Sequence record: MT446390.1
Strand: one strand, 5' to 3'
Length of the DNA stretch: 64,000 bases
Source: Escherichia phage TH12
Shown here: in pieces, positions 36,509 through 48,250 of the stretch
Numbering within the stretch: the stretch's first letter is position 1
How the letters are laid out: each line of letters begins with the position of its first letter
Program-made: the position numbers and the translations under genes
The notes under the pieces: generated by a model
The model's input: only the letters and a program-made list of their open reading frames with translations
Told to the model about the DNA's origin: nothing
Database searches by the model: none

Positions 36509-37501
36509 ATGTTACCTGTCGTCGGAAAACTTATTTCTCCAAAAGAACTGGCTGAGATTATTCCTTTGTCGGAAGCTTACGCATCACAAGTGGCTTCTCA
36601 TCGCGAACAAGTTAATTCGATTATGAACGGTGAAGACCCACGCAAACTTATTGTTGTAGGTCCTTGTTCAATTCATGACCCTATTGCTGCTGTTGAATAC
36701 GGCAAACGTCTGGCTGAACTTCAAACTCGTCTTCCTAATGTTCTGTTAGTGATGCGCGTTTATTTTGAAAAGCCTCGAACTACCGTAGGTTGGAAAGGTC
36801 TTGTAAATGATCCATATCTTGACGGAAGTTTTGATATGAACCACGGTCTTATAGTTGCACGAACATTGTGTCGTAAACTTCTACGTATGGGACTTCCATT
36901 AGCAACTGAAGTATTAGACCCATTCACGATTAAGTATCTTTCTGGTATTTTCTCATGGGTTGCTATTGGCGCACGTACGACTGAAAGTCAGACACATCGT
37001 GAAATTGCTTCAGGTCTACCGATGTGCGTAGGCTTCAAGAACGCAACCAATGGTTCTATTAAAGTAGCTACAGACGCGATGTATAGTGCCGCCTGGCCTC
37101 ATCGGTATATGGGTATGGACGTCGATGGTACTGTAGGCATTGTTGAAGCTGAAGGTAATCAGAATACGCATATCGTATTGCGTGGCGGGACCAACGGCCC
37201 GAACTATCATTCTTCTGATATTCAAGAAGCTTCTAACAAAGCAAGGGCAGTAGGTCTGAATCATTATGTAATGGTTGACTGTAGCCATGCAAACGCTGAT
37301 GGGCATTATAGCAATCAAATTGATATTGGTAAAAATTTAGCAGCTAATGATTTGGTCAAAGGAATTATGATAGAATCGTTCCTACATGAAGGAAATCAAA
37401 AAATTTCTGATAATATGTCCTATGGCGTTTCCGTTACCGATGCGTGCATCAGTTGGGAACAAACTAAAGAGCTGTTAACTTATATTAATAAGGTTCAATA
37501 A
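36509..37501 (+). CDS. 3-deoxy-D-arabino-heptulosonate 7-phosphate (DAHP) synthase, class I (AroG/AroF/AroH-like)
   Basis: 330 aa; LIVVGPCSIHDP, MRVYFEKPRTTVGWKGL, IGARTTESQTHRE, GFKNATNGS, ILRGG and MIESFLHEGNQ segments align with recalled E. coli AroG. Confidence 0.85.
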   Translation: MLPVVGKLISPKELAEIIPLSEAYASQVASHREQVNSIMNGEDPRKLIVVGPCSIHDPIAAVEYGKRLAELQTRLPNVLLVMRVYFEKPRTTVGWKGLVNDPYLDGSFDMNHGLIVARTLCRKLLRMGLPLATEVLDPFTIKYLSGIFSWVAIGARTTESQTHREIASGLPMCVGFKNATNGSIKVATDAMYSAAWPHRYMGMDVDGTVGIVEAEGNQNTHIVLRGGTNGPNYHSSDIQEASNKARAVGLNHYVMVDCSHANADGHYSNQIDIGKNLAANDLVKGIMIESFLHEGNQKISDNMSYGVSVTDACISWEQTKELLTYINKVQ

Positions 37502-38082
37502 TGAAAGCTAGCACATACCTTCAGATTGCATATCTGATTTCTCAAGAATCAAAATGTTGTTCATGGAAAGTTGGTGCCGTCATTGAAAAAGATGGACGCA
37601 TTATTTCTACAGGTTATAATGGCTCTCCTTCAGGTGGTGTTAACTGTTGTGAACATGCATCCGAAAACGGTTGGTTGAAGAATAAACCAAGCCCGGTCAT
37701 CGTTGCTGGGCATAAAGAAGGCACTACAGCATTTGGACGGGTGGATAATTTTGTTTTGGCTAAAGAACATCGGGCTGCTCATAGTGCATGGTCCGCTAAT
37801 AACGAAATCCATGCGGAACTGAATGCAATTTTGTTTGCAGCTCGTAAAGGTAATTCTATTGAAGGTGCTACGTTATATACTACGCTTTCTCCGTGTCCTG
37901 ATTGCACTAAAGCTATTACACAGTCAGGTATTAAAAAGGTTGTATATGCAGAATTATATGACCGATCTCCTGAAAATTGGGCAGACATTCTTAAACAAGC
38001 CGGTATTGAAGTAATTCAGTACTCTCGTAATAATCTTCGTTCTCTGAATTGGGAACAAATCCGAAACTTTTGTGGTGAATAA
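37501..38082 (+). CDS. cd: dCMP deaminase
   Basis: 193 aa; cytidine/dCMP deaminase zinc motifs (HAELNAI, PCPDC). Confidence 0.9.
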   Translation: MKASTYLQIAYLISQESKCCSWKVGAVIEKDGRIISTGYNGSPSGGVNCCEHASENGWLKNKPSPVIVAGHKEGTTAFGRVDNFVLAKEHRAAHSAWSANNEIHAELNAILFAARKGNSIEGATLYTTLSPCPDCTKAITQSGIKKVVYAELYDRSPENWADILKQAGIEVIQYSRNNLRSLNWEQIRNFCGE

Positions 38083-38083
38083 T

Positions 38084-38380
38084 ATGATTTTAACTGAACA
38101 AGAAACTATGGTTCTTCGTGAACGTATTAAAACTATTCTGTCTGTAGGCGTTCATTGTGTTGTATTTGAAAAGGCTAACGGCGATGTTCGTACGATGTTT
38201 GCCTCCCGTGATGAACTTGAAGTCAAATACGAAAATAACAATCCGGCAACAGAAGTTCGTTCTGAACCTCGTGAATCAGTTCGAGCATTCGATACCAAGT
38301 TAGGTCAGTGGCGTTCTTTCCGCCTTGATAAAGTAATTTCGGTTGATGGTACTCCGGTAGAACGTTTGCTTCTTATGTAA
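38084..38380 (+). CDS. hypothetical protein (98 aa) between cd and gene 31
   Basis: ATG at 38084 (ORF track begins at an upstream GTG). Confidence 0.55.
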   Translation: MILTEQETMVLRERIKTILSVGVHCVVFEKANGDVRTMFASRDELEVKYENNNPATEVRSEPRESVRAFDTKLGQWRSFRLDKVISVDGTPVERLLLM

Positions 38381-38437
38381 TATGCTTTACGAATAGTATG
38401 GTATTATTAATCTATCGTCAAACAATAAGGAAATAAG

Positions 38438-38770
38438 ATGTCTGAAGTACAACTCCCAATTCGTGCTGTTGGTGAATATGTCATTCTGGTTTCTGAACCC
38501 GCTCAAGCAGGTGATGAAGAAGTTACCGAATCAGGACTTGTGATTGGTAAACGTATTCAAGGTGAAGTTCCTGAACTATGTGTAGTTCATTCTGTAGGTC
38601 CTGATGTTCCTAAAGGTTTTGTTGAAGTCGGTGATTTGACTCCACTACCAGTTGGACAAATTCGAAATGTTCCACATCCATTTGTGGCTTTGGGACTTAA
38701 ACAACCTAAAGAAATTAAACAGAAATTCGTAACATGCCACTATAAAGCTATTCCGTGTCTTTATAAGTGA
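38438..38770 (+). CDS. 31: co-chaperonin gp31 (GroES-like)
   Basis: 110 aa; [39 protein letters not shown] matches recalled T4 gp31. Confidence 0.9.
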
Positions 38771-38894
38771 TATAAATAACTATATGAAGAGAACACTCTT
38801 CTAAGCGGTAGCCTACAACTGAGAGACTTGTCGAAAGAAGGTGAAATTCAGACGAACGTGGCTACTAAATATTATCTCGAATTGAGAATTTAAA

Positions 38895-39143
38895 ATGATT
38901 AAACAATTACAACACGCTCTTGAACTGCAACGCAACGCATGGAATAACGGTCACGAAAACTACGGCGCGTCAATTGATGTTGAAGCCGAAGCACTGGAAA
39001 TCCTGCGTTATTTCAAACACCTGAATCCTGCTCAGGCTACTCTGGCTTCTGAACTGGAAGCTAAAGATGAATTGAAATATGCTAAGCCTCTGGCTTCTGC
39101 AGCACGCAAAGCAGTTCGTCATTTTGTTATTACTTTGAAATAA
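38895..39143 (+). CDS. rIII: lysis inhibition accessory protein rIII
   Basis: 82 aa; MIKQLQHALELQRNAWNNGHENYGASIDVEAEALEILRYF matches recalled T4 rIII. Confidence 0.85.
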   Translation: MIKQLQHALELQRNAWNNGHENYGASIDVEAEALEILRYFKHLNPAQATLASELEAKDELKYAKPLASAARKAVRHFVITLK

Positions 39144-39306
39144 TTGCTATCATGCGTCAGCAAAAGGTTAGCTGTGTAAGTCATGGTAGGTATGATGACG
39201 GGTTTATGGTTATCCTGTCGTTAAATACCCAAAACCTATGTTCCCCTTGAGGGCTTGCGCAGGCAATGTCAATAAGTCCTGCATTTTCATTTAAAGAGAA
39301 TTTATA

Positions 39307-39486
39307 ATGGCAAAACAAGCTAAAGCAAAGAAAGCAGTTGAAAAGAAAGTTGATGGTACCTCTAAACGCGCTGGATACAAGCGTGGGTCGAACTCTCGTA
39401 TTAATCAAACAGTTGAGAAGATCATGCGCAGAGCACGTGCAGTTCTTCGAGATGATGCTTCTCGTTTTGGAAAGGTTGTTGCATAA
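39307..39486 (+). CDS. small lysine/arginine-rich protein (59 aa); not in ORF track
   Basis: ATG-initiated ORF MAKQAKAKKAVEKKVDGTSKRAGYKRGSNSRINQTVEKIMRRARAVLRDDASRFGKVVA, followed 5 nt later by a strong terminator hairpin. Confidence 0.45.
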   Translation: MAKQAKAKKAVEKKVDGTSKRAGYKRGSNSRINQTVEKIMRRARAVLRDDASRFGKVVA

Positions 39487-39490
39487 TTTT

Positions 39491-39514
39491 AGGGAGACTT
39501 CGGTCTCCCTTTTG
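39491..39514 (+). terminator. rho-independent terminator (AGGGAGAC-TTCG-GTCTCCCT + T tract)
   Basis: 8-bp stem, TTCG loop, TTTGTG. Confidence 0.65.
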
Positions 39515-39616
39515 TGCGTTTAGGGCAGAAAAAGTTTAAAAAAGATGTTTACTCTCCTGTAGGATGTGTTACTATAGACTTGTACCACCTAATCAATAAA
39601 ACAACCGGAGAATAAA

Positions 39617-39985
39617 ATGAAAATCAATCTGAACTCATACATCAAATGTAAAGACCACGATGGTTATAAAGCTATCGAAATTAAAGAATTCCAGTGGATG
39701 TTATACAAAGAGCAATTTGAGTTCGTAGGTTGTATGACCCCTGAAGGTCCTTCTGATGATTTCTCTTGGAAAATTGTGTTAGCAAACTTTTTCACAGGTG
39801 ACACGTACGAATTAAAAACTATTATTACCGGTAAAATTCGTTCAGAAACATATGTTGACGAAGAAACTGGTTACTCTGAAGATGTTACATGGTATCAAAA
39901 TGGACGCATTACAGCAGATAACCTGATCGAAAAAATGAAAGCCAAAGGTGTTTTAAATTTAGACAATTGGATTAAAGTTGCATAA
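39617..39985 (+). CDS. hypothetical protein (122 aa)
   Basis: ORF with RBS GGAGAA and upstream promoter cassette. Confidence 0.6.
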   Translation: MKINLNSYIKCKDHDGYKAIEIKEFQWMLYKEQFEFVGCMTPEGPSDDFSWKIVLANFFTGDTYELKTIITGKIRSETYVDEETGYSEDVTWYQNGRITADNLIEKMKAKGVLNLDNWIKVA

Positions 39986-39989
39986 AACA

Positions 39990-40029
39990 GTTTACTTTGG
40001 TACAGGTTATGTTATTATAGACCTGTACC
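39990..40029 (+). promoter_or_regulatory. early promoter with -10 region inside 9-bp inverted repeat GGTACAGGT/ACCTGTACC
   Basis: GTTTAC at 39990-39995; loop TATGTTATTATAG; upstream of ORF 40060. Confidence 0.45.
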
Positions 40030-40059
40030 AATAAACAACTTAAACATCTGGAGAATAAA

Positions 40060-40425
40060 ATGAACTACATCAACTTCGAACGCAAATATGTTTCTAACGG
40101 TATTGCTGGTTCTTCTGAAGTTATTTGCTTATGGAAACACGAAAACGGTACAGTTTGTGAAATCGAACAGTGCATGACTCCTAATTACGTTTATATGCGA
40201 TTTGAAAATGGTATCACGGTTTCAATCACGATGGAAGGTTCAAATTTTAAAATTGCATTAGATGATGATTTCCGTCAGCGTGATTTAGGTACTCATCCTT
40301 GCTGGAATGGTGTTAATCGTAAACTTCTGGTTAAAACTTGGATTCGTCATATCCTGAGTAACCGAGCTAAACCTGAACATCTCGAAGCAATCTTTGATGT
40401 AGTTCTTAACGAATTTGATATCTAA
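40060..40425 (+). CDS. hypothetical protein (121 aa)
   Basis: ORF with RBS GGAGAA. Confidence 0.6.
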   Translation: MNYINFERKYVSNGIAGSSEVICLWKHENGTVCEIEQCMTPNYVYMRFENGITVSITMEGSNFKIALDDDFRQRDLGTHPCWNGVNRKLLVKTWIRHILSNRAKPEHLEAIFDVVLNEFDI

Positions 40426-40461
40426 ATTAATTGGGAGCCGAAGCTCCCTATTGAGGAAATT

Positions 40462-41076
40462 ATGTTTAAAGTTAATACTTTTTATAAAATGAATTTTAAA
40501 AACGGGGATATTACTCCACGCCTTAAAAACATGTTCTCATATGACCTTATCGAGCCTTTTGAAGTTTTAGAAGTTACTGATGCTGGCTCGGTTTGTGAAA
40601 TTAGAACTTCTGAAGGTAAAATTTATCAGGCAGGTATTGGTAAATTCAGTAATTGTTTTACTTTAATATTCTCGACTGATTTAGATGAGCATTTTATTGA
40701 ATGTCCTAACCATAAGGTCTACGAAGTTCCATGGAAAGAAACTAAGAAAAATGGACCGCATGAATACACGAAGGTTGAAACTCCTCACGGCGATATGTGG
40801 CGGCATAACTCTCCTTTCGGAAGTAAAGGAACATTTGCTCAACTGCCTAAACCTTATGACGATGAAAAATACATCGTCGCCTTTTTATCTGAACAGGGTA
40901 CTCAAGACCGTGGATGTCAACGAAGTGGTTTACTAAGTGAACTTGAAGCTCATAACCAAGCACGTGAATTCGTTGAGAAAAATCCTGGCTCTGAAGCTCT
41001 AGTCATGAAAGCAATTACTCAATATATCACTGCTCAACCTGTTGTTCATCCGGTAGAAATTAATTTCATTAAGTAG
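40462..41076 (+). CDS. hypothetical protein (204 aa)
   Basis: ORF with RBS GAGGAAA. Confidence 0.6.
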   Translation: MFKVNTFYKMNFKNGDITPRLKNMFSYDLIEPFEVLEVTDAGSVCEIRTSEGKIYQAGIGKFSNCFTLIFSTDLDEHFIECPNHKVYEVPWKETKKNGPHEYTKVETPHGDMWRHNSPFGSKGTFAQLPKPYDDEKYIVAFLSEQGTQDRGCQRSGLLSELEAHNQAREFVEKNPGSEALVMKAITQYITAQPVVHPVEINFIK

Positions 41077-41130
41077 TTTACATCCAAGGACGGATTAGAG
41101 TATAATGATTTCTTTAGTAAGTGGAAAAAT

Positions 41131-41328
41131 ATGAAATTTTTAATAGCACAAACAGTCCAATTAAAAGGTGTTGGAATTCCTGGGGTGATTTTTAAAGTTC
41201 TCCCTGAATTTAAAACCGCCGCTGGAATTATCAATGAAGCGTATGCTGTTCAATGGGTTGATTGGACTTCTGACATACGTATGGGTAAAGAGTTATCTCC
41301 TATTAAAGGGTTGAAACATGTTGAATAA
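41131..41328 (+). CDS. hypothetical protein (65 aa)
   Basis: Small ORF, coupled to next. Confidence 0.45.
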   Translation: MKFLIAQTVQLKGVGIPGVIFKVLPEFKTAAGIINEAYAVQWVDWTSDIRMGKELSPIKGLKHVE

Positions 41329-41530
41329 ATTAATCCAGAAATTGTTAGGTACAGAAATGGTTGAAGTTACGTATCGTGTGACTGATGTAAGCCCATGGGC
41401 CCGAAAAGTTGAACCATATACTAAAACAATTAAAATGCTGAAATATGACGGTGGATTATCTATCAAAGACCGTCTACCGGCTTATGGTCATTGGGCTGAT
41501 GTTGAAATTATAAGTGTTAAAGATGTCTGA
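41318..41530 (+). CDS. hypothetical protein (70 aa)
   Basis: Small ORF. Confidence 0.45.
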   Translation: MLNKLIQKLLGTEMVEVTYRVTDVSPWARKVEPYTKTIKMLKYDGGLSIKDRLPAYGHWADVEIISVKDV

Positions 41531-41981
41531 GTTAGAGATTAGAAGCAATTTTAGATGGCCGTCATGTGCATTAAGTAATTTTGCCCAGTGGCCTTTCGTT
41601 ATGGATGGTATTCAATTCGGAGGTCTTGAAGGATTTCTCCAAGGATGTAAGGTGAAAAATGTTGAACAACAAAGACGTATATTTGGGCTGTCAGGACTGG
41701 CCGCACAGCAAGCTGGAAGGTCTTATGCAAGAGCTCAGGACCATGGGACTCTCTTCTGGTTAGGAGTTCCATTTTCAAGATACTCTGAAGCATGGAAAGA
41801 ATTATATACAAATGCATATTTTGAAGCAGCGATCCAAAACAAGGGGTTTCGCGATGCCTTACAAGCCTCTAAAGGAAAAATTTTGAAGCACAGCATGGCC
41901 AGCCACCTAACAAAAGATGATACAATATTAACTGAAGCTGAATTTATTGATGTGTTAAACCTATTAAGAGACTCTTTATGA
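41523..41981 (+). CDS. hypothetical protein, tentatively NADAR/DUF1768-like (YbiA-like)
   Basis: Segment LSNFAQWPFVMDG...FGGLEGFLQ resembles the FSNF..WP...DG motif of NADAR-family proteins; tentative. Confidence 0.55.
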   Translation: MSELEIRSNFRWPSCALSNFAQWPFVMDGIQFGGLEGFLQGCKVKNVEQQRRIFGLSGLAAQQAGRSYARAQDHGTLFWLGVPFSRYSEAWKELYTNAYFEAAIQNKGFRDALQASKGKILKHSMASHLTKDDTILTEAEFIDVLNLLRDSL

Positions 41982-42802
41982 AGCCTACTATTTTGACTGA
42001 TATTGATGGTGTATGTTTAAGCTGGCAATCTGGACTTCCTTATTTTGCCCAAAAATATAATCTTCCATTAGAACATATTTTAAAAATGATTCAGGACGAA
42101 AAATTTATTTCTCCTGGTAAACTATTCAATACCGATGATAACCTCGGTAAACAATTAATAGAAAAATATAATCGCTCTGATTTTATTCGTTACTTAGCGC
42201 CTTATTCGGATGCTCTTCGAGTTATCAATAAACTAAAAGAAGACTATAATTTTGTAGCCGTGACGGCGCTAGGTGATTCAATTGATGCTCGATTGAATAG
42301 ACAATTTAATTTGAATGCTTTGTTCCCAGGCGCTTTCTCTGAAGTAATGATGTGTGGTCATGATTCTTCAAAGGAACAATTATTCGAACTAGCTAAAACA
42401 AAATACAACGTGATTTGTTACGTTGACGATTTAGCTCATCACTGTGACCATGCGGCAGAAATTCTTAATGTACCGATTTATTGGTTGGCTCGTGGTGAAC
42501 GTGATGATATTCCTCGCACTGCACAACGTGTACACACATGGGATGATATTGAATCTCGTTTGGTTCTGCCTAAGAATAATTCAGATTCAGATCGTGAAGA
42601 CCTTTTAAAACGATTGGCGGATTTGCTTAAAGAATCTGGTGCAACAAGTCCAGGTGCATGGCCTAATCAAATTGGTGGCCCCTCGACAACACGTACTCCA
42701 TATACCTGGCGAACCCCAGGACCAACTGATATGCAGCCGTGGTGGACGATTCAAAACTTTCCTTTAGATTCGTCCAAATGGACTTGGTCTATAAATTGTT
42801 AA
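41978..42802 (+). CDS. hypothetical protein with HAD-like N-terminal motif (ILTDIDGV)
   Basis: 274 aa; DxDGV-type motif at residues ~7-11 suggests a HAD-superfamily phosphatase fold; unverified. Confidence 0.6.
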   Translation: MKPTILTDIDGVCLSWQSGLPYFAQKYNLPLEHILKMIQDEKFISPGKLFNTDDNLGKQLIEKYNRSDFIRYLAPYSDALRVINKLKEDYNFVAVTALGDSIDARLNRQFNLNALFPGAFSEVMMCGHDSSKEQLFELAKTKYNVICYVDDLAHHCDHAAEILNVPIYWLARGERDDIPRTAQRVHTWDDIESRLVLPKNNSDSDREDLLKRLADLLKESGATSPGAWPNQIGGPSTTRTPYTWRTPGPTDMQPWWTIQNFPLDSSKWTWSINC

Positions 42803-42811
42803 GGGCTAATT

Positions 42812-43081
42812 ATGTTTGTAGTTCATGATATTACAGATGGCAAAAACACCACACGTGACTACGGTCATGTTAACATGTTCTTTCGAGACTGGCCGGTGTT
42901 TCGTTCAGTAAAAGACGCAGAAATATTTAAAGAGTGTGTTGAACAAGGGTTCATCTACATTTCAGAATATTATGTTGAAGGACTCGGTAAATGGATTACC
43001 ACTTATCAGAAAACGCTGAAATCGCTTCTAGATGAAGTGGCTTATAATAGAACCGTAACCAAAATCGAGGACATCAAATGA
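42812..43081 (+). CDS. hypothetical protein (89 aa)
   Basis: ORF immediately upstream of the ligase gene, overlapping start. Confidence 0.55.
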   Translation: MFVVHDITDGKNTTRDYGHVNMFFRDWPVFRSVKDAEIFKECVEQGFIYISEYYVEGLGKWITTYQKTLKSLLDEVAYNRTVTKIEDIK

Positions 43082-44571
43082 TTTTAGATATTTTAAACCA
43101 AATAGCTGCGATCGGTTCTACTAAAACAAAACAAGAAATCCTTAAGAAAAATAAGGACAACAAATTACTTGAACGTGTGTATCGTTTAACATATGCACGT
43201 GGTATCCAGTATTATATTAAGAAATGGCCAGGACCAGGTGAAAGGTCTCAAGCGTATGGTCTTCTTGAATTAGATGATATGTTGGATTTTATTGAGTTCA
43301 CATTAGCCACTCGTAAACTCACTGGTAATGCTGCAATTAAAGAGCTCATGGGTTATATCGCTGACGGTAAACCTGATGATGTAGAAGTCCTTCGTCGTGT
43401 AATGATGCGAGACCTTGAAGTAGGTGCTTCAGTGTCTATCGCGAATAAGGTGTGGCCTGGACTTATTCAATTGCAGCCACAGATGTTAGCATCTGCATAT
43501 GATGAGAAATTGATTACTAAAAATATTAAATGGCCTGCATTTGCCCAATTAAAGGCAGATGGTGCTCGTTGTTTCGCTGAAGTTCGCGATGATGGCGTTC
43601 AATTCTTTTCTCGTGCCGGTAACGAATACCATGGTCTTACTCTATTAGCAGATGAACTAATGGAAATGACTAAAGAAGCTCGTGAAAGACACCCTAATGG
43701 GGTTTTAATCGACGGTGAATTAGTTTATCATTCATTTGATATTAAAAAGGCTGTGAGCTCAGGAAATGACCTGTCGTTCTTATTTGGCGATAATGAAGAA
43801 TCCGAAGAAGTACAAGTTGCAGACCGTAGCACTTCAAATGGTTTAGCAAATAAATCTCTTCAAGGGACTATTTCTCCTAAAGAAGCGGAAGGTATGGTTC
43901 TTCAAGCCTGGGACTATGTTCCTTTAGATGAAGTCTACTCTGATGGCAAAATTAAAGGTCAGAAATACGATGTTCGTTTTGCTGCTCTTGAAAATATGGC
44001 TGAAGGCTTTAAGCGAATTGAGCCAATTGAAAATCAGTTAGTTCGTAATCTTGACGAAGCTAAAGTGGTTTATAAAAAATATGTTGACCAAGGTCTTGAA
44101 GGTATTATCCTTAAAAACCGTGATTCATATTGGGAAAACAAACGCTCTAAGAACCTAATTAAATTTAAAGAAGTTATTGATATCGCTTTAGAAGTTGTAG
44201 GATACTACGAACACTCTAAAGACCCTAACAAATTAGGTGGTGTCGAACTCGTATCACGTTGTCGTCGTATTACAACCGATTGTGGTTCAGGGTTTAAAGA
44301 CACAACTCATAAAACAGTTGATGGTGTAAAGGTTCTTATTCCTTTAGATGAGCGTCATGATTTAGACCGTGAACGATTAATGGCTGAAGCTCGTGAAGGT
44401 AAATTGATTGGACGTATTGCTGATTGCGAATGTAATGGTTGGGTTCATTCTAAAGGACGTGAAGGCACTGTAGGTATTTTCCTTCCAATTATTAAAGGGT
44501 TCCGTTTTGATAAAACAGAAGCGGATTCATTTGAAGACGTATTTGGACCGTGGTCCCAGACAGGTTTATAA
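43078..44571 (+). CDS. 30: ATP-dependent DNA ligase (gp30)
   Basis: 497 aa; MILDILNQIAAIGSTKTKQEILKKNKDNKLLERVYRLTY and KADGARCFAEVR (adenylation lysine motif) match recalled T4 ligase. Confidence 0.9.
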   Translation: MILDILNQIAAIGSTKTKQEILKKNKDNKLLERVYRLTYARGIQYYIKKWPGPGERSQAYGLLELDDMLDFIEFTLATRKLTGNAAIKELMGYIADGKPDDVEVLRRVMMRDLEVGASVSIANKVWPGLIQLQPQMLASAYDEKLITKNIKWPAFAQLKADGARCFAEVRDDGVQFFSRAGNEYHGLTLLADELMEMTKEARERHPNGVLIDGELVYHSFDIKKAVSSGNDLSFLFGDNEESEEVQVADRSTSNGLANKSLQGTISPKEAEGMVLQAWDYVPLDEVYSDGKIKGQKYDVRFAALENMAEGFKRIEPIENQLVRNLDEAKVVYKKYVDQGLEGIILKNRDSYWENKRSKNLIKFKEVIDIALEVVGYYEHSKDPNKLGGVELVSRCRRITTDCGSGFKDTTHKTVDGVKVLIPLDERHDLDRERLMAEAREGKLIGRIADCECNGWVHSKGREGTVGIFLPIIKGFRFDKTEADSFEDVFGPWSQTGL

Positions 44572-44759
44572 TGAAAGCTTATTTAGAAACAGTTATTGTA
44601 GCTAAGAAGGATGGTGGAGATGTTTCCACCTCTTGTTCCCAAATTGTATTAGATTTTCCTAATAACGATTCCTATCATATTTTTATGGATAATTTTGATA
44701 AGTACGAAAAAGGCCCTAATTTTGAAGTTTATCGTACTTTGCTTCCGATTGTGGATTAA
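44571..44759 (+). CDS. hypothetical protein (62 aa)
   Basis: ATG overlapping ligase stop (TAATG); followed by terminator. Confidence 0.5.
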   Translation: MKAYLETVIVAKKDGGDVSTSCSQIVLDFPNNDSYHIFMDNFDKYEKGPNFEVYRTLLPIVD

Positions 44760-44780
44760 GAGCCTTCGGGCTCTTTTTGG
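44760..44780 (+). terminator. rho-independent terminator (GAGCC-TTCG-GGCTC + T5)
   Basis: Hairpin plus TTTTT. Confidence 0.6.
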
Positions 44781-44814
44781 CATAAATATAAATTATTACT
44801 AAAAGGAAAACACT

Positions 44815-46902
44815 ATGTCTGAACAATTAAATGAAGTGTTTGAATCTGAAGGCAGTCTTCCTGTCGTCAATTTGAACCCTAAAGCTAAAGTTCCACAAGT
44901 CTGGAAAATTGGTGATATCGATACAAACATCGTAGTTCGTTTATTCTCTTACCTTTCCGAAGGCGACGCTGTAAAACAAGTTAAACTTGGCGACAAATAC
45001 GCTCATGTTGTTATTATGAGTCTGTCTGAAAAGGGTAATCTCGCTGAATTGAAAAATGGCCTTGGTCCTGCTCCTATTGATGCAATCAACACCATTTTCA
45101 ATACAGTGTATGAACAGGTTAAAGCTCTTCGTATGGATGCAGTTCTGTTCCGATTCCCTACCAAGAAATTGAAAGGACGTGGACAACAACTTCAAACTCT
45201 TCTTGCTCGTCTAGTTTCTACTAAAACCGGTGGTCGTTTTAAAGTATTGTCTGCAATGTATCAATTCACAGGTAAACACACCTATGTGATGATGGTTCGT
45301 AAAAATGCCAACATTGAAGATATTAAAGGCATCCCTAACATTAACACAGAGTTGTACACGAAAGTAGATTCTGATGTTGGCGAAGTTTATGTGAGTAAAA
45401 AGACCGGCGAAAAAGTCACCAAAGAAACGGCTATCGCTGGTTCTATTGCTGCTGTAGAAGAAAAACGTAAAGATAAGCCTGTTATTGCTCGTACTAAAAT
45501 TTCTCGTCGTGCTATTGCAGCAAGTCAATCTTTAGAAGCTGACCGCCAAGAAGGTGAGTTATTCCAGAAATACGAAAATTCTGCTAAAGAAGTTAGTGGC
45601 CCGGCTACAGCTGAATTACTTCCTGAAGCATATGAAATCGTACTAGCCCAAGCATCGTCTACAGCAAAAGGCACTTTAGTTGCTGATATCGAAAATAAGA
45701 TTTATAATCGTATTGATGAATCATTTAAATTTGCTGATGAAGTTTCTTATGGTAGCGTTATTAAGCCGACTTTAGAAAAGTTTGCTAAGAAAATTAAAAC
45801 TGAAAAAACAACATCTGTTAAAGCATTAGCTGCTTTTGTTGAAGCTGCAAACGAAATTGCAGACTCTATTAGAGACGAATGGTTTGAAGATTTTAGACGA
45901 GATAATTTCCAACTGGCTGACGACGTTTTAGCTGAAGTATCTGAAAAAACTTGGAAACAACGTAAATCGGCGTTCTTGTCTAATGTGATGTATACTTATG
46001 CACGAGAATCGGCTAGAGGCACCTTTAATATAACAATGAATCGGGACCCTAAACAATACTCTGTTGCTGAAAAACGAGCTATTCGTGAATATGCCTCTTC
46101 TGCGTATACCGATATCAATAATATGTTGTTAGGTCGTTATAAACCGGATTTTTATGATGTTGCAGATGAAGATGAAGTTAAACGCGCTATTGATGGTCTT
46201 GATTCGGCGTTTTTAAATGGAGACCGTTTACCTGAAGGACTAACGTTATATAGAGCTCAGTCTATCAGAATGCCTATTTATGAAGCAATGGTTAAAAATA
46301 AGGTATTCTACTTCAGAAACTATGTTTCCACTTCACTAGCTCCTATTATTTTTGGCGGGTTTAAAGAGAACGTTGCCCTTGGACTTGCTCCTGAAGAAGT
46401 TCGTAAAGAGCTTAACATTGACAATAATGACGAAGGTGTTACTATTTCTCCTAGTCAAGTAAGAACAGCTATGCACGCACCAGAACAAATCCGTGTTAAC
46501 GTTGGATGGGCTATTGATGGCGCCCATAAAGTTAACGTGATTTATCCAGGACAGTTGAGTAATCACCCTAATGAGCAAGAAATTATTTTGCCTAGAGGCA
46601 TTCTCTTGCAGATAAATAAAATTACAGATGCGTCATCTGACACTGGTGCAGGTTTAGAATCCAACCTTAAATTTATTCAAGCTGAAGTCATGTCCTCAGA
46701 CCAGTTGGATGAAGCGGTCATTTACGATGGTGATGTTCTCATGGAAACAGGCGAGGTGGTTGCTATGACGGGTGAAATCGAATCAGATGAGCCGGTATCA
46801 TTCTCCTCATTTGTAGAAAAAACTAGTGCTCCTAAAGGATTGAAACTGTTAGCATCTTTAATGGATTTGGAATCGGTTCCGTTTAAATTTGTTCAAGGAT
46901 AG
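44815..46902 (+). CDS. alt: ADP-ribosyltransferase Alt (packaged internal protein)
   Basis: 695 aa (T4 Alt 682 aa) at the alt position; candidate ART motifs: Arg-containing LYRAQ, STS (YVSTSLAP) and E-x-E-like EQEIILPRG. Confidence 0.8.
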   Translation: MSEQLNEVFESEGSLPVVNLNPKAKVPQVWKIGDIDTNIVVRLFSYLSEGDAVKQVKLGDKYAHVVIMSLSEKGNLAELKNGLGPAPIDAINTIFNTVYEQVKALRMDAVLFRFPTKKLKGRGQQLQTLLARLVSTKTGGRFKVLSAMYQFTGKHTYVMMVRKNANIEDIKGIPNINTELYTKVDSDVGEVYVSKKTGEKVTKETAIAGSIAAVEEKRKDKPVIARTKISRRAIAASQSLEADRQEGELFQKYENSAKEVSGPATAELLPEAYEIVLAQASSTAKGTLVADIENKIYNRIDESFKFADEVSYGSVIKPTLEKFAKKIKTEKTTSVKALAAFVEAANEIADSIRDEWFEDFRRDNFQLADDVLAEVSEKTWKQRKSAFLSNVMYTYARESARGTFNITMNRDPKQYSVAEKRAIREYASSAYTDINNMLLGRYKPDFYDVADEDEVKRAIDGLDSAFLNGDRLPEGLTLYRAQSIRMPIYEAMVKNKVFYFRNYVSTSLAPIIFGGFKENVALGLAPEEVRKELNIDNNDEGVTISPSQVRTAMHAPEQIRVNVGWAIDGAHKVNVIYPGQLSNHPNEQEIILPRGILLQINKITDASSDTGAGLESNLKFIQAEVMSSDQLDEAVIYDGDVLMETGEVVAMTGEIESDEPVSFSSFVEKTSAPKGLKLLASLMDLESVPFKFVQG

Positions 46903-46960
46903 TTTACAAACACATGGATGTGTGATACTATCATCCCATCAACAACATGAGGAAAACGTT

Positions 46961-47254
46961 ATGAAATCTATGCTTCGCTTTAATGGTCAAGAACTAGTAG
47001 TTGAAGATGCCATCCCAGCGGATGATGTTTTTAACGAAGCTGTGATTGACGAATTGAATCGAGTATTCCCAGGTGCATTCCATATTGCTATGGAACCTCT
47101 TAAAAACTTTCGTGACCCTGAACACACTGACCAAATTTTTATCGGTGTAGTGACAGGTCATTTAGAAACAGAGGTACCAATGGTCGTATTAGTTAAATAC
47201 TCTAAAGATGATACTCCATTCCGAGCACCAGCATTCCTTTCATTCCGTAAATAA
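46961..47254 (+). CDS. hypothetical protein (97 aa)
   Basis: ATG at 46961 with RBS GAGGAAA (ORF track starts further upstream). Confidence 0.55.
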   Translation: MKSMLRFNGQELVVEDAIPADDVFNEAVIDELNRVFPGAFHIAMEPLKNFRDPEHTDQIFIGVVTGHLETEVPMVVLVKYSKDDTPFRAPAFLSFRK

Positions 47255-47260
47255 ACCCCT

Positions 47261-47286
47261 AAAGGGAGACGTTGTCTCCCTTTTTT
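47261..47286. terminator. bidirectional terminator between convergent ORF 46961 and gene 54
   Basis: GGGAGAC-GTTG-TCTCCC flanked by A run upstream and T6 downstream. Confidence 0.6.
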
Positions 47287-47287
47287 C

Positions 47288-48250
47288 TTATAGTCCTAAA
47301 ACTCTTGACGCAGAATTCACCACACCTGTCAATGTGTTTATATTAGACACACCTCCAGCAGTCCCACCTAATCTAGAAAGTCTTGATACTGCACTTCCTA
47401 GACCAGAATCATTCTGATTATTTCCAAACATTCCTGAAACACTACTAATAAGTCCTGATTCCAGCCATTCTAAAGCAGCCTGTCTATTTACAGCACCTGA
47501 TTGCATAACGCGATAAGCAAATGTTACATCAAAAACTGTTATCTGATTATCACCATCATACGTTAACTCAGGAGAAGAGACGCTAACAGGAATACATCCA
47601 GTGAACATGACAGCGGTATGTGGTAAACCATTTCGCGCATGTAAATTAACCTGAATATCTGCTTCGACGTCTTGTGGTAAAGCGCGAAGTCCTGTTACAG
47701 GGTCTTGGACCGAGTTTACCCAGTCTTGCATTGCTCTAAAGTTAGATGCTTCGGAATCCATTCTAAAGCTTATTACTAATGGGTCCATTTCTCTGCCGGT
47801 AATTCGGATGTTCGGGGAGTTATAGTTGAAATCCGTTTCATAAGATAATCGGTTCTCAGGCATTTTTACAGAATAAATCATTAAACCTGTATTATTATAT
47901 GCCATATTGAAGAAGTCTATCAGATAAGATCCTACCGTGAACTCACCTAACAAGCTTTGTACCGTACGTTGGCTCATTGCTCCAATCAGATATTTACTTA
48001 TACCTGATTTTCGAATTAATTTCTGTGTTCCTGCTGTAATCAGGGTTGTTACGCCCTGATTGATATCACCTTGAGTTAATCCTAACCAATCAGAATCCAA
48101 CCCTAAGTTATTATAAGCAAAACTACCAATTGACGAAATTAGTGAAGATGATTTGGTCGATGGCGTAGTAGCAAATACACAACTAAACATATTGTTTCGT
48201 TGGAAATCTGCATTTATAGCTTGGTTATTAAATTCTTCTAAAGAGTACAT
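47288..48250 (-). CDS. 54: baseplate tail-tube initiator gp54
   Basis: 320 aa (T4 gp54 320 aa), synteny 54-48-29-28-27-51. Confidence 0.85.
   Translation of the reverse strand: MYSLEEFNNQAINADFQRNNMFSCVFATTPSTKSSSLISSIGSFAYNNLGLDSDWLGLTQGDINQGVTTLITAGTQKLIRKSGISKYLIGAMSQRTVQSLLGEFTVGSYLIDFFNMAYNNTGLMIYSVKMPENRLSYETDFNYNSPNIRITGREMDPLVISFRMDSEASNFRAMQDWVNSVQDPVTGLRALPQDVEADIQVNLHARNGLPHTAVMFTGCIPVSVSSPELTYDGDNQITVFDVTFAYRVMQSGAVNRQAALEWLESGLISSVSGMFGNNQNDSGLGSAVSRLSRLGGTAGGVSNINTLTGVVNSASRVLGL

What the first reader, a model, noticed from the sequence alone, without database searches (positions are those of the whole stretch)
39617..42802. Variable early-gene island between rIII and DNA ligase, incl. 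NADAR-like and HAD-like proteins
Seven or eight ORFs with no recognisable T4 core function, several with their own PeSL-type promoter. ORF 41523..41981 has an N-terminal LSNFAQWP...DG segment reminiscent of NADAR/DUF1768 proteins, and ORF 41978..42802 begins with a HAD-like ILTDIDGV motif. A NADAR-family protein and a phosphatase next to each other suggest nucleotide or ADP-ribose processing; the phage also encodes the ADP-ribosyltransferase Alt (44815..46902). This is speculative.
Basis: inference. Interest (0 to 1): 0.4.

Follow-up and report, generated by a model that had tools for sequence, protein, structure and literature searches.

The report
T4 30.x early genes, including AdfN
This stretch is the well-known gene 30.9-to-30.1 early cluster of a T4-like (RB69-type) coliphage; its "NADAR-like" gene is adfN, already shown to strip ADP-ribose off phage DNA to defeat the bacterial DarTG1 defence, and its neighbour is an untested nucleotidase-like phosphatase.

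Summary
Seven + strand ORFs fill 39617-42802, with early-promoter/hairpin (PeSL-type) elements between some of them.

The window is a Mosigvirus (98% DNA identity to phage p000y, 96% to RB69 from 41315 on). Six ORFs are T4 genes 30.8, 30.7, 30.5, 30.4, 30.3 and 30.2. Only the 204-aa ORF (40462-41076) is lineage-restricted; it replaces T4/RB69 gene 30.6.

ORF 41523-41981 is gp30.3, also called AdfN.
- It is 97% identical to T4 AdfN, a published NADAR DNA ADP-ribosylglycohydrolase that removes DarT1-made guanine-ADP-ribose.
- E36, K43, H123 and the C-terminal helix are present. RB69's inactivating extra T is absent.

ORF 41978-42802 is gp30.2.
- It is closest to 5'(3')-deoxyribonucleotidases. 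Its substrate is unknown.

Both domain guesses were right. The proposed NADAR-phosphatase-Alt pathway is not supported: gp30.2 stays next to DNA ligase, whereas 30.3 is often elsewhere, and AdfN works alone in vitro.

Verdict: already known, low interest.

The parts
39307..39486 (+). Gene 30.9 homologue (59 aa).
   Evidence: phrog_1427, 2.4e-31. 93% amino-acid identity to T4 30.9 and 100% to RB69. T4 and RB69 annotation.
39491..39616 (+). Complete PeSL-type cassette. Order: hairpin GGGAGAC-UUCG-GUCUCCC (39491-39509) followed by a U run, an A-rich stretch, -35 (G)TTTACT at 39547-39553, N17, -10 TACTAT at 39570-39575, GGAG Shine-Dalgarno, then ATG at 39617.
   Evidence: Sequence. Hairpin -14.1 kcal/mol, z -3.8. 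Fits the PST/T4 PeSL consensus TTTACW-N17-TAYWAT with an upstream stem-loop (PMC4122927).
39617..39985 (+). Gene 30.8 homologue (122 aa). Function unknown; a divergent module.
   Evidence: Pfam Phage_30_8, 6.7e-44. Only 39% identical to T4 and 56% to RB69.
39991..40031 (+). Early-promoter-like site TTTACT-N16-TATTAT (39991-40018). Its -10 lies inside an inverted repeat, TTGGTACAGGT...ACCTGTACCAA (39997-40031).
   Evidence: RNA fold -18 kcal/mol, z -5.3.
40060..40425 (+). Gene 30.7 homologue (121 aa). Function unknown.
   Evidence: Pfam Phage_T4_Gp30_7, 2.3e-51. 93% identical to T4.
40433..40448 (+). Stand-alone hairpin GGGAGC-CGAA-GCUCCC between 30.7 and the 204-aa ORF. It sits at the left edge of the segment that has no counterpart in RB69.
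   Evidence: Fold -13.3 kcal/mol, z -3.5. Break in RB69 similarity at 40469.
40462..41076 (+). 204-aa ORF of unknown function. It occupies the slot of T4/RB69 gene 30.6 and is the truly variable gene of the island.
   Evidence: No Pfam or NCBIfam hit. phrog_17531 only. No similarity to T4 or RB69 gp30.6. Full-length in 113 of 50,697 phage records, by name Escherichia/Shigella/Enterobacteria phages, with the labelled best hits being Mosigvirus. 40469-41314 is absent from RB69.
41077..41106 (+). Best sigma-70/early-promoter match of the region, TTTACA-N18-TATAAT. It heads the tightly packed run 30.5-30.4-30.3-30.2-30.1-30.
   Evidence: 11 of 12 matches. Sequence. Start/stop overlaps or a 9-nt gap between successive ORFs from 41131 to 44571.
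41131..41328 (+). Gene 30.5 homologue (65 aa). Function unknown.
   Evidence: phrog_1690, 2.4e-28. 71% DNA identity to T4 30.5. Absent from RB69.
41318..41530 (+). Gene 30.4 homologue (70 aa). Function unknown. It overlaps adfN by 8 nt.
   Evidence: phrog_2042, 4.6e-34. 44% identical to T4 and 72% to RB69.
41523..41981 (+). adfN (gene 30.3), 152 aa. [quoted passage not shown] This is an intact allele.
41978..42802 (+). Gene 30.2, 274 aa. Residues 1-195 form a C1-capped HAD phosphatase allied to 5'(3')-deoxyribonucleotidases (NT5C). Residues ~200-274 are a variable tail: a predicted helix at 202-219, then a Pro/Trp/Thr-rich stretch that is disordered from about 225. Its start overlaps the adfN stop (ATGA).
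42812..43081 (+). Gene 30.1 homologue (DUF3045, 89 aa). It overlaps the ligase start by 4 nt.
   Evidence: Pfam DUF3045, 1.1e-26.
43078..44571 (+). Gene 30, ATP-dependent DNA ligase. Included as context: it is the conserved downstream neighbour of 30.2.
   Evidence: 99% amino-acid identity to the annotated RB69 ligase. Ligase lies within 700 nt downstream of 30.2 in 66 of 76 loci.

Best explanation
The span is the gene 30.9-30.1 early cluster of a Mosigvirus (RB69-like T-even phage). It is transcribed rightward from sigma-70 early promoters, some packaged as PeSL promoter/hairpin cassettes. These cassettes are thought to mediate module swapping, and one such swap put a lineage-specific 204-aa ORF where T4 and RB69 carry 30.6.

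Two genes have assignable biochemistry.

(1) ORF 41523-41981 is adfN (gp30.3), a minimal NADAR/YbiA-fold N-glycosidase. The host DarT1 toxin ADP-ribosylates guanine in phage DNA to block replication. AdfN hydrolyses the guanine-ADP-ribose bond and so restores replication. This activity and its anti-DarTG1 role are shown for the 97%-identical T4 protein and inferred here by orthology. All residues known to matter are present: E36, K43, the clade-specific His123 and the C-terminal helix. Unlike RB69, whose allele is frameshifted, this phage should therefore be DarTG1-resistant (inferred).

(2) ORF 41978-42802 is gp30.2, a Mg-dependent HAD phosphatase. Asp8 is the nucleophile, Asp10 the acid/base, and Thr96, Lys132 and Asp150/151 complete the site. 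It has a helical C1 cap, which points to a small phosphorylated substrate. The fold and family ties are closest to 5'(3')-deoxyribonucleotidases, so the most likely substrate is a (deoxy)nucleoside monophosphate. This is inferred, and the substrate is untested.

The two enzymes are neighbours through T-even gene order. They are not parts of a demonstrated common pathway.
For: Identity of the cluster:
- Pfam and PHROG families for 30.8, 30.7, 30.5, 30.4, 30.3, 30.2 and 30.1.
- Collinearity with annotated T4 and RB69.
- 98% DNA identity to Mosigvirus p000y.

AdfN:
- 147 of 152 residues identical to T4 gp30.3.
- Intact where RB69 has an extra T.
- E36, K43 and H123 conserved across 61 family members.
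- Family profile hits YbiA, E = 0.0028.
- Published genetics and biochemistry for T4 AdfN.
- 32 synonymous against 5 non-synonymous codon differences from T4. It is more conserved than ligase (97% against 65% amino-acid identity).

gp30.2:
- HAD motifs I-IV conserved in 48 close and 119 distant relatives.
- Confident model for residues 1-190 with the canonical strand/motif order and a helical insert at residues 12-88.
- Among the top Foldseek hits, the deoxyribonucleotidases combine the highest target-normalised TM (0.61-0.69) with the lowest rmsd.
- NT5C is the commonest Pfam family among relatives, 28 of 119.
- Some GenBank records already call homologues '5' nucleotidase' or 'HAD-like hydrolase'.

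PeSL: sequence and folds; definition in PMC4122927.
Against: - No experiment exists on this phage. DarTG1 resistance is extrapolated from T4 and T2.
- The window protein does not itself hit Pfam NADAR PF08719 at E <= 1. It hits only the sister model PF08010.
- gp30.2 hits no Pfam HAD model above threshold (HAD_2 15.5 bits against a cut-off of 23.8). It does not hit NT5C directly. Its PDB sequence hits are not significant.
- Five of the seven ORFs remain without any functional assignment.
Confidence: 0.88

Rival explanations
1. The NADAR protein and the HAD phosphatase form a two-step pathway that processes ADP-ribose or nucleotides, functionally tied to the phage's own ADP-ribosyltransferase Alt. 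For example, it could clear or recycle ADP-ribose adducts or products.
For: - The two genes overlap by 4 nt (ATGA at 41978-41981).
- They are directly adjacent in 18 of 76 related loci.
- Both are found in about 1,400-1,500 T4-like phage records with near-identical genus distributions.
- T4-like NADARs had been noted as early genes alongside ARTs (PMC9503650).
- AdfN works fully only in T-even infections, for unknown reasons.
Against: - In 39 of 76 loci, 30.3 is not within 5 kb upstream of 30.2, while 30.2 keeps its place next to ligase in 66 of 76. In phiR1-RT, 30.3 lies near gene 1 and 57B.
- Purified AdfN alone removes ADP-ribose from DNA, and adfN alone complements T4 and T2 deletions.
- AdfN's demonstrated substrate is guanine-ADP-ribose made by the host DarT1. 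No evidence ties it to Alt's products.
- Co-occurrence at genome level is expected for any two near-core Straboviridae genes.
Confidence: 0.07
2. gp30.2 is a DNA-end 3'-phosphatase, or another nucleic-acid-directed phosphatase, that prepares nicks for the adjacent DNA ligase. It would not be a small-molecule nucleotidase.
For: - 30.2 lies within 700 nt upstream of gene 30 in 66 of 76 loci spanning many T4-like genera.
Against: - The model has a roughly 75-residue helical C1 cap between motifs I and II (residues 12-88). From general knowledge of HAD enzymes, this is typical of small-molecule phosphatases, whereas macromolecule-directed HADs are usually capless.
- T-even phages already encode the Pnk 3'-phosphatase (pseT is annotated in RB69).
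- Synteny in a conserved genome backbone is weak functional evidence.
Confidence: 0.08
3. AdfN's main natural substrates are soluble ADP-ribose-derived immune signals or RNA-repair by-products, rather than ADP-ribosylated DNA. This was proposed for phage NADARs before the experiments.
For: - Contextual arguments in PMC9503650.
- AdfN cannot replace DarG1 in uninfected cells and barely rescues T5 or Bas25. Its in vivo action is therefore not fully explained.
Against: - Direct in vitro removal of guanine-ADP-ribose from DNA.
- Loss of DarTG1 resistance on deletion, and loss of function in E36A and K43A mutants.
- No soluble substrate has been shown.
Confidence: 0.05

Closest known systems
T4 AdfN (gp30.3), anti-DarT factor NADAR (PMC11825919; PMC11125620)
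   Same: Same gene in the same genomic slot between 30.4 and 30.2. Same length of 152 aa, with 147 of 152 residues identical. E36, K43, H123 and the C-terminal helix are present.
   Different: Five substitutions: H74R, E89P, I120V, M124I and H128G (window residue first). The host genome is a Mosigvirus, not a Tequatrovirus. Nothing suggests a different function.
RB69 gene 30.3 (truncated adfN allele; RB69 is DarTG1-sensitive)
   Same: Closest genomic background: 96% DNA identity from 41315 to 47500, with the same flanking genes.
   Different: RB69 carries one extra T that creates an early stop and removes the last 15 residues, the C-terminal helix. The window lacks it and encodes the full 152 aa.
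DarG1 / DarT1-associated NADAR antitoxins (Geobacter lovleyi 8bat) and stand-alone NADARs (Phytophthora 8bau, E. coli YbiA 2b3w)
   Different: - Only 14-19% sequence identity.
- The phage clade has His where YbiA has Glu and DarG1-type enzymes have Asp near the last strand.
- It has no fold extensions and is an orphan, not paired with a toxin.
- It does not act as an antitoxin in uninfected cells.
5'(3')-deoxyribonucleotidases of the NT5C family (human/mouse cdN and mdN; S. epidermidis 3bwv)
   Different: - Only 13-18% identity, and the window protein does not reach PF06941 itself.
- It has an extra ~75-residue tail beyond the HAD core, Pro/Trp-rich and disordered towards its end.
- Its activity and substrate are untested.
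T4 gp30.2 (uncharacterised)
   Same: Orthologue. Same position, with an ATGA overlap with 30.3. About 90% identity over residues 1-180.
   Different: The C-terminal tail diverges apart from a TWRTPG motif. No function is published in the searchable library.
PeSL promoter-early/stem-loop cassettes of T4-like phages (PMC2839356; PMC4122927)
   Same: The element at 39491-39616 has every listed part in order: hairpin, A-rich stretch, TTTACW-N17-TAYWAT, Shine-Dalgarno, ATG. Half-elements flank the segment that differs from RB69.
   Different: The other sites are partial: promoter only at 39991 and 41077, hairpin only at 40433.

Membership tests
NADAR superfamily, phage gp30.3/AdfN clade | [quoted passage not shown] | tested here: met
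NADAR superfamily, phage gp30.3/AdfN clade | Catalytic Glu and Lys in the N-terminal motif (E36 and K43 of T4 AdfN, needed for function) | tested here: met
   E36 and K43 are present in the window protein. Both are at least 90% conserved in 61 family members. Mutational data for T4 in PMC11825919.
NADAR superfamily, phage gp30.3/AdfN clade | Clade-specific histidine at the last beta-strand, in place of Glu (YbiA) or Asp (DarG1-type) | tested here: met
   H123 is invariant in 61 sequences. It directly follows the last strand, 120-122, of the model. Definition in PMC11125620.
NADAR superfamily, phage gp30.3/AdfN clade | Intact C-terminal helix (its loss in RB69 reduces activity) | tested here: met
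   No extra T, and the ORF runs to 152 aa. Helix 138-151 is present in the model.
NADAR superfamily, phage gp30.3/AdfN clade | Profile membership: Pfam PF08010 above cut-off, and a sequence link to canonical NADAR/YbiA | tested here: met
   PF08010 231.7 bits against a cut-off of 36. The family profile hits YbiA 2b3w, E = 0.0028. Four of the 120 listed relatives carry both PF08010 and PF08719. The window protein alone gives no PF08719 hit at E <= 1.
NADAR superfamily, phage gp30.3/AdfN clade | Hydrolysis of guanine-linked ADP-ribose on DNA, and protection of the phage from DarTG1 | not testable with these tools
   Shown for T4 AdfN, which is 97% identical, in PMC11125620 and PMC11825919. Inferred here by orthology.
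HAD (haloacid dehalogenase-like) phosphatase superfamily | Rossmannoid HAD core fold | tested here: met
HAD (haloacid dehalogenase-like) phosphatase superfamily | Motif I DxD (nucleophile plus acid/base Asp) at the end of strand 1 | tested here: met
   D8 and D10 are invariant in 48 close relatives and 119 distant relatives. Strand 4-7 precedes D8.
HAD (haloacid dehalogenase-like) phosphatase superfamily | Motif II Thr/Ser, motif III Lys, motif IV acidic pair | tested here: met
   T96 is at least 90% conserved, at the end of strand 91-96. K132 is invariant, before helix 133-142. D150 and D151 are at least 90% conserved, at the end of strand 145-150.
HAD (haloacid dehalogenase-like) phosphatase superfamily | Curated profile hit above threshold (Pfam HAD_2 or Hydrolase; NCBIfam) | tested here: inconclusive
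   HAD_2 15.5 bits against a cut-off of 23.8, E 0.02. TIGR01428 E 0.094. Among relatives, 12 of 119 hit Hydrolase and 9 of 119 hit HAD_2. This is a divergent branch, and motifs and fold carry the assignment.
HAD (haloacid dehalogenase-like) phosphatase superfamily | Mg-dependent phosphoryl-transfer activity | not testable with these tools
   No experimental report was found.
NT5C 5'(3')-deoxyribonucleotidase family (PF06941) | Profile membership in PF06941 | tested here: inconclusive
   The window protein gives no hit. 28 of 119 family relatives hit NT5C (best 4.2e-10), the most frequent family. P0368 scores 37.3 bits against a cut-off of 24.8.
NT5C 5'(3')-deoxyribonucleotidase family (PF06941) | Structural similarity to cdN/mdN, including the C1 cap | tested here: met
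NT5C 5'(3')-deoxyribonucleotidase family (PF06941) | dNMP substrate specificity | not tested
   No residue-level comparison of the nucleotide-binding pocket was made, and there is no assay.
PeSL (promoter-early stem-loop) cassettes | Stem-loop, AT-rich stretch, TTTACW-N17-TAYWAT, Shine-Dalgarno and start codon, in that order, in an intergenic gap of a variable region | tested here: met
   All parts are present at 39491-39619, matching the definition in PMC4122927. The other three sites are partial.

The most novel reading that the evidence does not exclude
gp30.2, the nucleotidase-like HAD phosphatase whose start codon overlaps the adfN stop codon, could be the unidentified T-even-encoded factor that AdfN needs to work fully in vivo. 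The AdfN paper reports that AdfN cannot protect uninfected cells, T5 or Bas25, and suggests that an additional T-even protein may be required. RB69, which ectopic adfN rescues fully, has an intact gp30.2 that is 97% identical to the window's, so published data do not exclude this. A weaker variant is that gp30.2 is an independent counter-defence or nucleotide-pool enzyme acting on a (deoxy)nucleotide-derived product.
Probability: 0.06. Interest if true: 0.6.

Novelty: already known. Interest (0 to 1): 0.15.

Why it matters
It matters little for discovery. The cluster is standard T-even gene content, and the NADAR gene's function was published in 2024-2025.

Three useful points remain:
- This RB69-type phage carries an intact adfN, so it should resist DarTG1 where RB69 does not. 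That is a simple, testable host-range prediction for about 110 related therapeutic or typing coliphages.
- gp30.2 is a near-universal but uncharacterised HAD/NT5C-like phosphatase of T4-like phages, always parked beside DNA ligase. It is a clean target for a substrate screen.

Tried and rejected
- **Recent T4 import of adfN.** I suspected this because the protein is 97% identical to T4. Rejected: the DNA from 41315 to 47500 is 96% identical to RB69 and only 84-90% to T4. The high protein identity reflects purifying selection (32 synonymous against 5 non-synonymous codon changes) and is shared by the whole lineage.
- **Strict NADAR-HAD pairing.** Rejected by synteny counts. My first reading, that half the phages lack 30.3, was also wrong. 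Genome-wide tblastn shows 30.3 in about 1,510 records and 30.2 in about 1,439, so 30.3 is simply elsewhere in those genomes.
- **Single-sequence and profile searches of PDB sequences.** Nothing for gp30.3 alone. Only non-significant hits for gp30.2.
- **NCBIfam.** No useful hit.
- **Rfam on 38500-45000.** No RNA family.
- **Literature search for gp30.2 or gene 30.2.** Only the AdfN paper's figure legend.
- **204-aa ORF against T4/RB69 gp30.6.** No similarity. Its function stays unknown.
- **Fusion relatives of gp30.2** (P0229, P0269, P0285, P0321). The partner regions have no Pfam domain.
- Foldseek against afdb50 was not available.

Full report
**What is there**

Between rIII (38895-39143) and DNA ligase (43078-44571), the + strand carries a tight row of ORFs:

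| Coordinates | Length | Identity |
|---|---|---|
| 39307-39486 | 59 aa | gene 30.9 |
| 39617-39985 | 122 aa | gene 30.8 |
| 40060-40425 | 121 aa | gene 30.7 |
| 40462-41076 | 204 aa | no T4 counterpart |
| 41131-41328 | 65 aa | gene 30.5 |
| 41318-41530 | 70 aa | gene 30.4 |
| 41523-41981 | 152 aa | gene 30.3 |
| 41978-42802 | 274 aa | gene 30.2 |
| 42812-43081 | 89 aa | gene 30.1 |

- Pfam and PHROGs identify them as T4 genes 30.9, 30.8, 30.7, 30.5, 30.4, 30.3, 30.2 and 30.1. The order matches annotated T4 and RB69.
- The best DNA match is Escherichia phage p000y, a Mosigvirus, at 98%.
- Against RB69 the window is 96% identical over 37500-39143 and 41315-47500, and 87% over 39147-40468. It has no counterpart for 40469-41314.
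- No Rfam family is present.

**How variable it is**

- Of 786 phage records with DNA similarity to 39200-43100, only 111 cover at least 80%.
- Amino-acid identity to T4 is mosaic: 30.9 93%, 30.8 39%, 30.7 93%, 30.4 44%, 30.3 97%, 30.2 68%, 30.1 56%, ligase 65%, Alt 42%.
- The one gene without a T4 or RB69 counterpart is the 204-aa ORF.
  - It sits where those phages have 30.6, and it is unrelated to 30.6.
  - It has no Pfam or NCBIfam hit.
  - It occurs full-length in 113 phage records, by name Escherichia, Shigella and Enterobacteria phages; the best hits with a genus label are Mosigvirus. All are annotated 'hypothetical'.

**Regulatory elements**

- The gap before 30.8 holds a complete PeSL cassette as defined for the PST/T4 pair (PMC4122927). 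It consists of:
  - a UUCG hairpin at 39491-39509 (-14.1 kcal/mol, z -3.8) with a U run;
  - an A-rich stretch;
  - TTTACT, N17, TACTAT at 39548-39575;
  - GGAG and the ATG.
- A promoter-only site precedes 30.7 (39991-40018). Its -10 is embedded in a 12-bp inverted repeat.
- A hairpin-only site follows 30.7 (40433-40448).
- The best promoter match of the region (TTTACA-N18-TATAAT, 41077-41106) precedes 30.5.
- From 30.5 to ligase, successive ORFs overlap or are 9 nt apart. This run probably behaves as one early transcription unit (inferred).
- The hairpin at 40433 and the promoter at 41077 flank the 204-aa ORF, which makes up most of the segment that differs from RB69. That fits the published idea of PeSL-mediated module exchange, but I did not reconstruct an event.

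**The NADAR gene**

ORF 41523-41981 is gene 30.3. Two papers in the library settle its function in T4.

- PMC11125620 shows that purified T4 gp30.3 hydrolyses guanine-linked, but not thymine-linked, ADP-ribose on DNA. It also defines phage NADARs by a His where YbiA has Glu and DarG1-type enzymes have Asp.
- PMC11825919 renames the gene adfN and shows:
  - it is necessary in T4 and T2, and sufficient for RB69, to overcome DarTG1;
  - E36A and K43A impair it;
  - RB69 is DarTG1-sensitive because a single extra T truncates its allele by 15 residues.

The window protein compares as follows.

- It is 147 of 152 residues identical to T4 AdfN, with E36 and K43 in place.
- The DNA alignment shows it lacks RB69's extra T.
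- In an alignment of 61 family members, E36 and K43 are at least 90% conserved and H123 is invariant.
- The PF08010 family is large: 3,123 proteins at E <= 0.001. A few members also hit PF08719.
- Against T4 the gene shows 32 synonymous and 5 non-synonymous codon differences. It is better conserved than the essential ligase next door.

I conclude, by orthology, that this phage has a working AdfN and should resist DarTG1, unlike RB69.

**The HAD gene**

ORF 41978-42802 is gene 30.2. I found no published function.

- Direct profile hits are sub-threshold: HAD_2 at E 0.02.
- The family alignment shows all four HAD motifs. D8 and D10 are invariant, T96 is at least 90% conserved, K132 is invariant, and D150/D151 are at least 90% conserved. 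This holds in 48 close and 119 distant relatives.
- The model is confident for residues 1-190. Each motif sits at its canonical place after strands 4-7, 91-96, 120-125 and 145-150.
- A helical insert at residues 12-88 forms a C1 cap.
- Beyond about residue 200 comes a variable tail: a predicted helix at 202-219, then a Pro/Trp/Thr-rich stretch with pLDDT below 50 from about residue 231.
- Among the top Foldseek hits, the cytosolic and mitochondrial 5'(3')-deoxyribonucleotidases and 3bwv combine the highest target-normalised TM (0.61-0.69) with the lowest rmsd.
- An exhaustive profile search found 1,043 cluster representatives. Of 119 scanned, 28 hit Pfam NT5C, 12 hit Hydrolase and 9 hit HAD_2.
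- Some GenBank records already label homologues '5' nucleotidase' or 'HAD-like hydrolase'.

The superfamily call is therefore solid. The nucleotidase reading is the best available guess, and the substrate is open.

**Are the two enzymes a pair, and is Alt involved?**

- In 76 related viral loci with enough flank, ligase lies within 700 nt downstream of 30.2 in 66. Gene 30.3 is directly upstream in 18, 61-1,500 nt upstream in 19, and not within 5 kb in 39.
- Those 39 have not necessarily lost 30.3. Genome-wide tblastn finds 30.3 in 1,510 records and 30.2 in 1,439, with near-identical genus counts. In phiR1-RT, 30.3 sits near genes 1 and 57B.
- Both are therefore near-core Straboviridae genes whose adjacency is specific to T-even relatives.
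- AdfN works alone in vitro, and its known substrate is a host-made DNA adduct. No evidence links it to Alt.
It is also not strictly excluded. AdfN is fully active only in T-even infections, for unknown reasons, and RB69 has an intact 30.2. I give the idea that gp30.2 is the missing helper about 6%.

**Verdict**

The domain calls are right, the mechanism proposed is not supported, and the real function of the key gene is already published. Novelty: already known. Interest: low.

Noticed in passing
window 41659-41763 (+), inside adfN: T4 annotates an internal out-of-frame gene 30.3' of 75 aa, starting 136 nt into 30.3. The same ATG exists here, but the frame closes after 34 aa. 30.3' is therefore not conserved and is probably not a real gene.
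   Followed up: partly
P0014, P0019, P0013/P0015; RB69 L003 10268-10681: Natural alleles exist in which 30.7 or 30.8 is fused in frame to the C-terminal half of 30.3. In P0014 the junction is at ...RDLGT|LFWLG.... These fusions delete the catalytic N-terminus of AdfN. Together with RB69's frameshift, they show recurrent loss of adfN in T-even phages despite its strong conservation elsewhere.
   Followed up: partly
window 41523-41981 against 43078-44571: AdfN is far better conserved between this Mosigvirus and T4 than the essential DNA ligase or Alt: 97% amino-acid and 90% nucleotide identity, against 65% for ligase and 42% for Alt. The rIII-30.9, 30.7 and 30.3 modules look either more recently shared or more constrained than their neighbours.
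   Followed up: partly
window 39997-40031: A 12-bp inverted repeat, TTGGTACAGGT...ACCTGTACCAA (-18 kcal/mol as RNA, z -5.3), encloses the -10 hexamer of the promoter in front of 30.7. The paralogous promoter before 30.8 (39540-39621) has only a degenerate version.
   Followed up: partly
window 40462-41076: A 204-aa ORF of unknown function occurs full-length in 113 phage records, by name Escherichia, Shigella and Enterobacteria phages (labelled best hits are Mosigvirus). Its last ~60 residues resemble 'gp30.6A' of Shigella phage SP18. Its N-terminal ~100 residues weakly match two other PHROGs of unknown function.
   Followed up: partly
window 42575-42802 (gp30.2 residues ~200-274): gp30.2 carries a variable C-terminal tail: a predicted helix, then a Pro/Trp/Thr-rich stretch predicted disordered. 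It shares a TWRTPG motif with T4. More distant homologues either lack the tail (about 200 aa in total) or have unrelated extensions. It could be a protein-interaction tail.
   Followed up: no
P0144, P0138, P0221, P0162: PF08010 ('bacteriophage protein GP30.3') members also lie on contigs of 275-319 kb, one named as a Candidatus Limnocylindrales bacterium. The 'phage' NADAR clade is therefore probably not confined to phages.
   Followed up: no
L002 5403-5783 (phage p000y) and P0004-P0006: Several database entries annotate adfN from an internal Met (126 aa, starting MDGIQF...). This omits the first 26 residues, which include the conserved SNF motif. It is an annotation start-site error.
   Followed up: no
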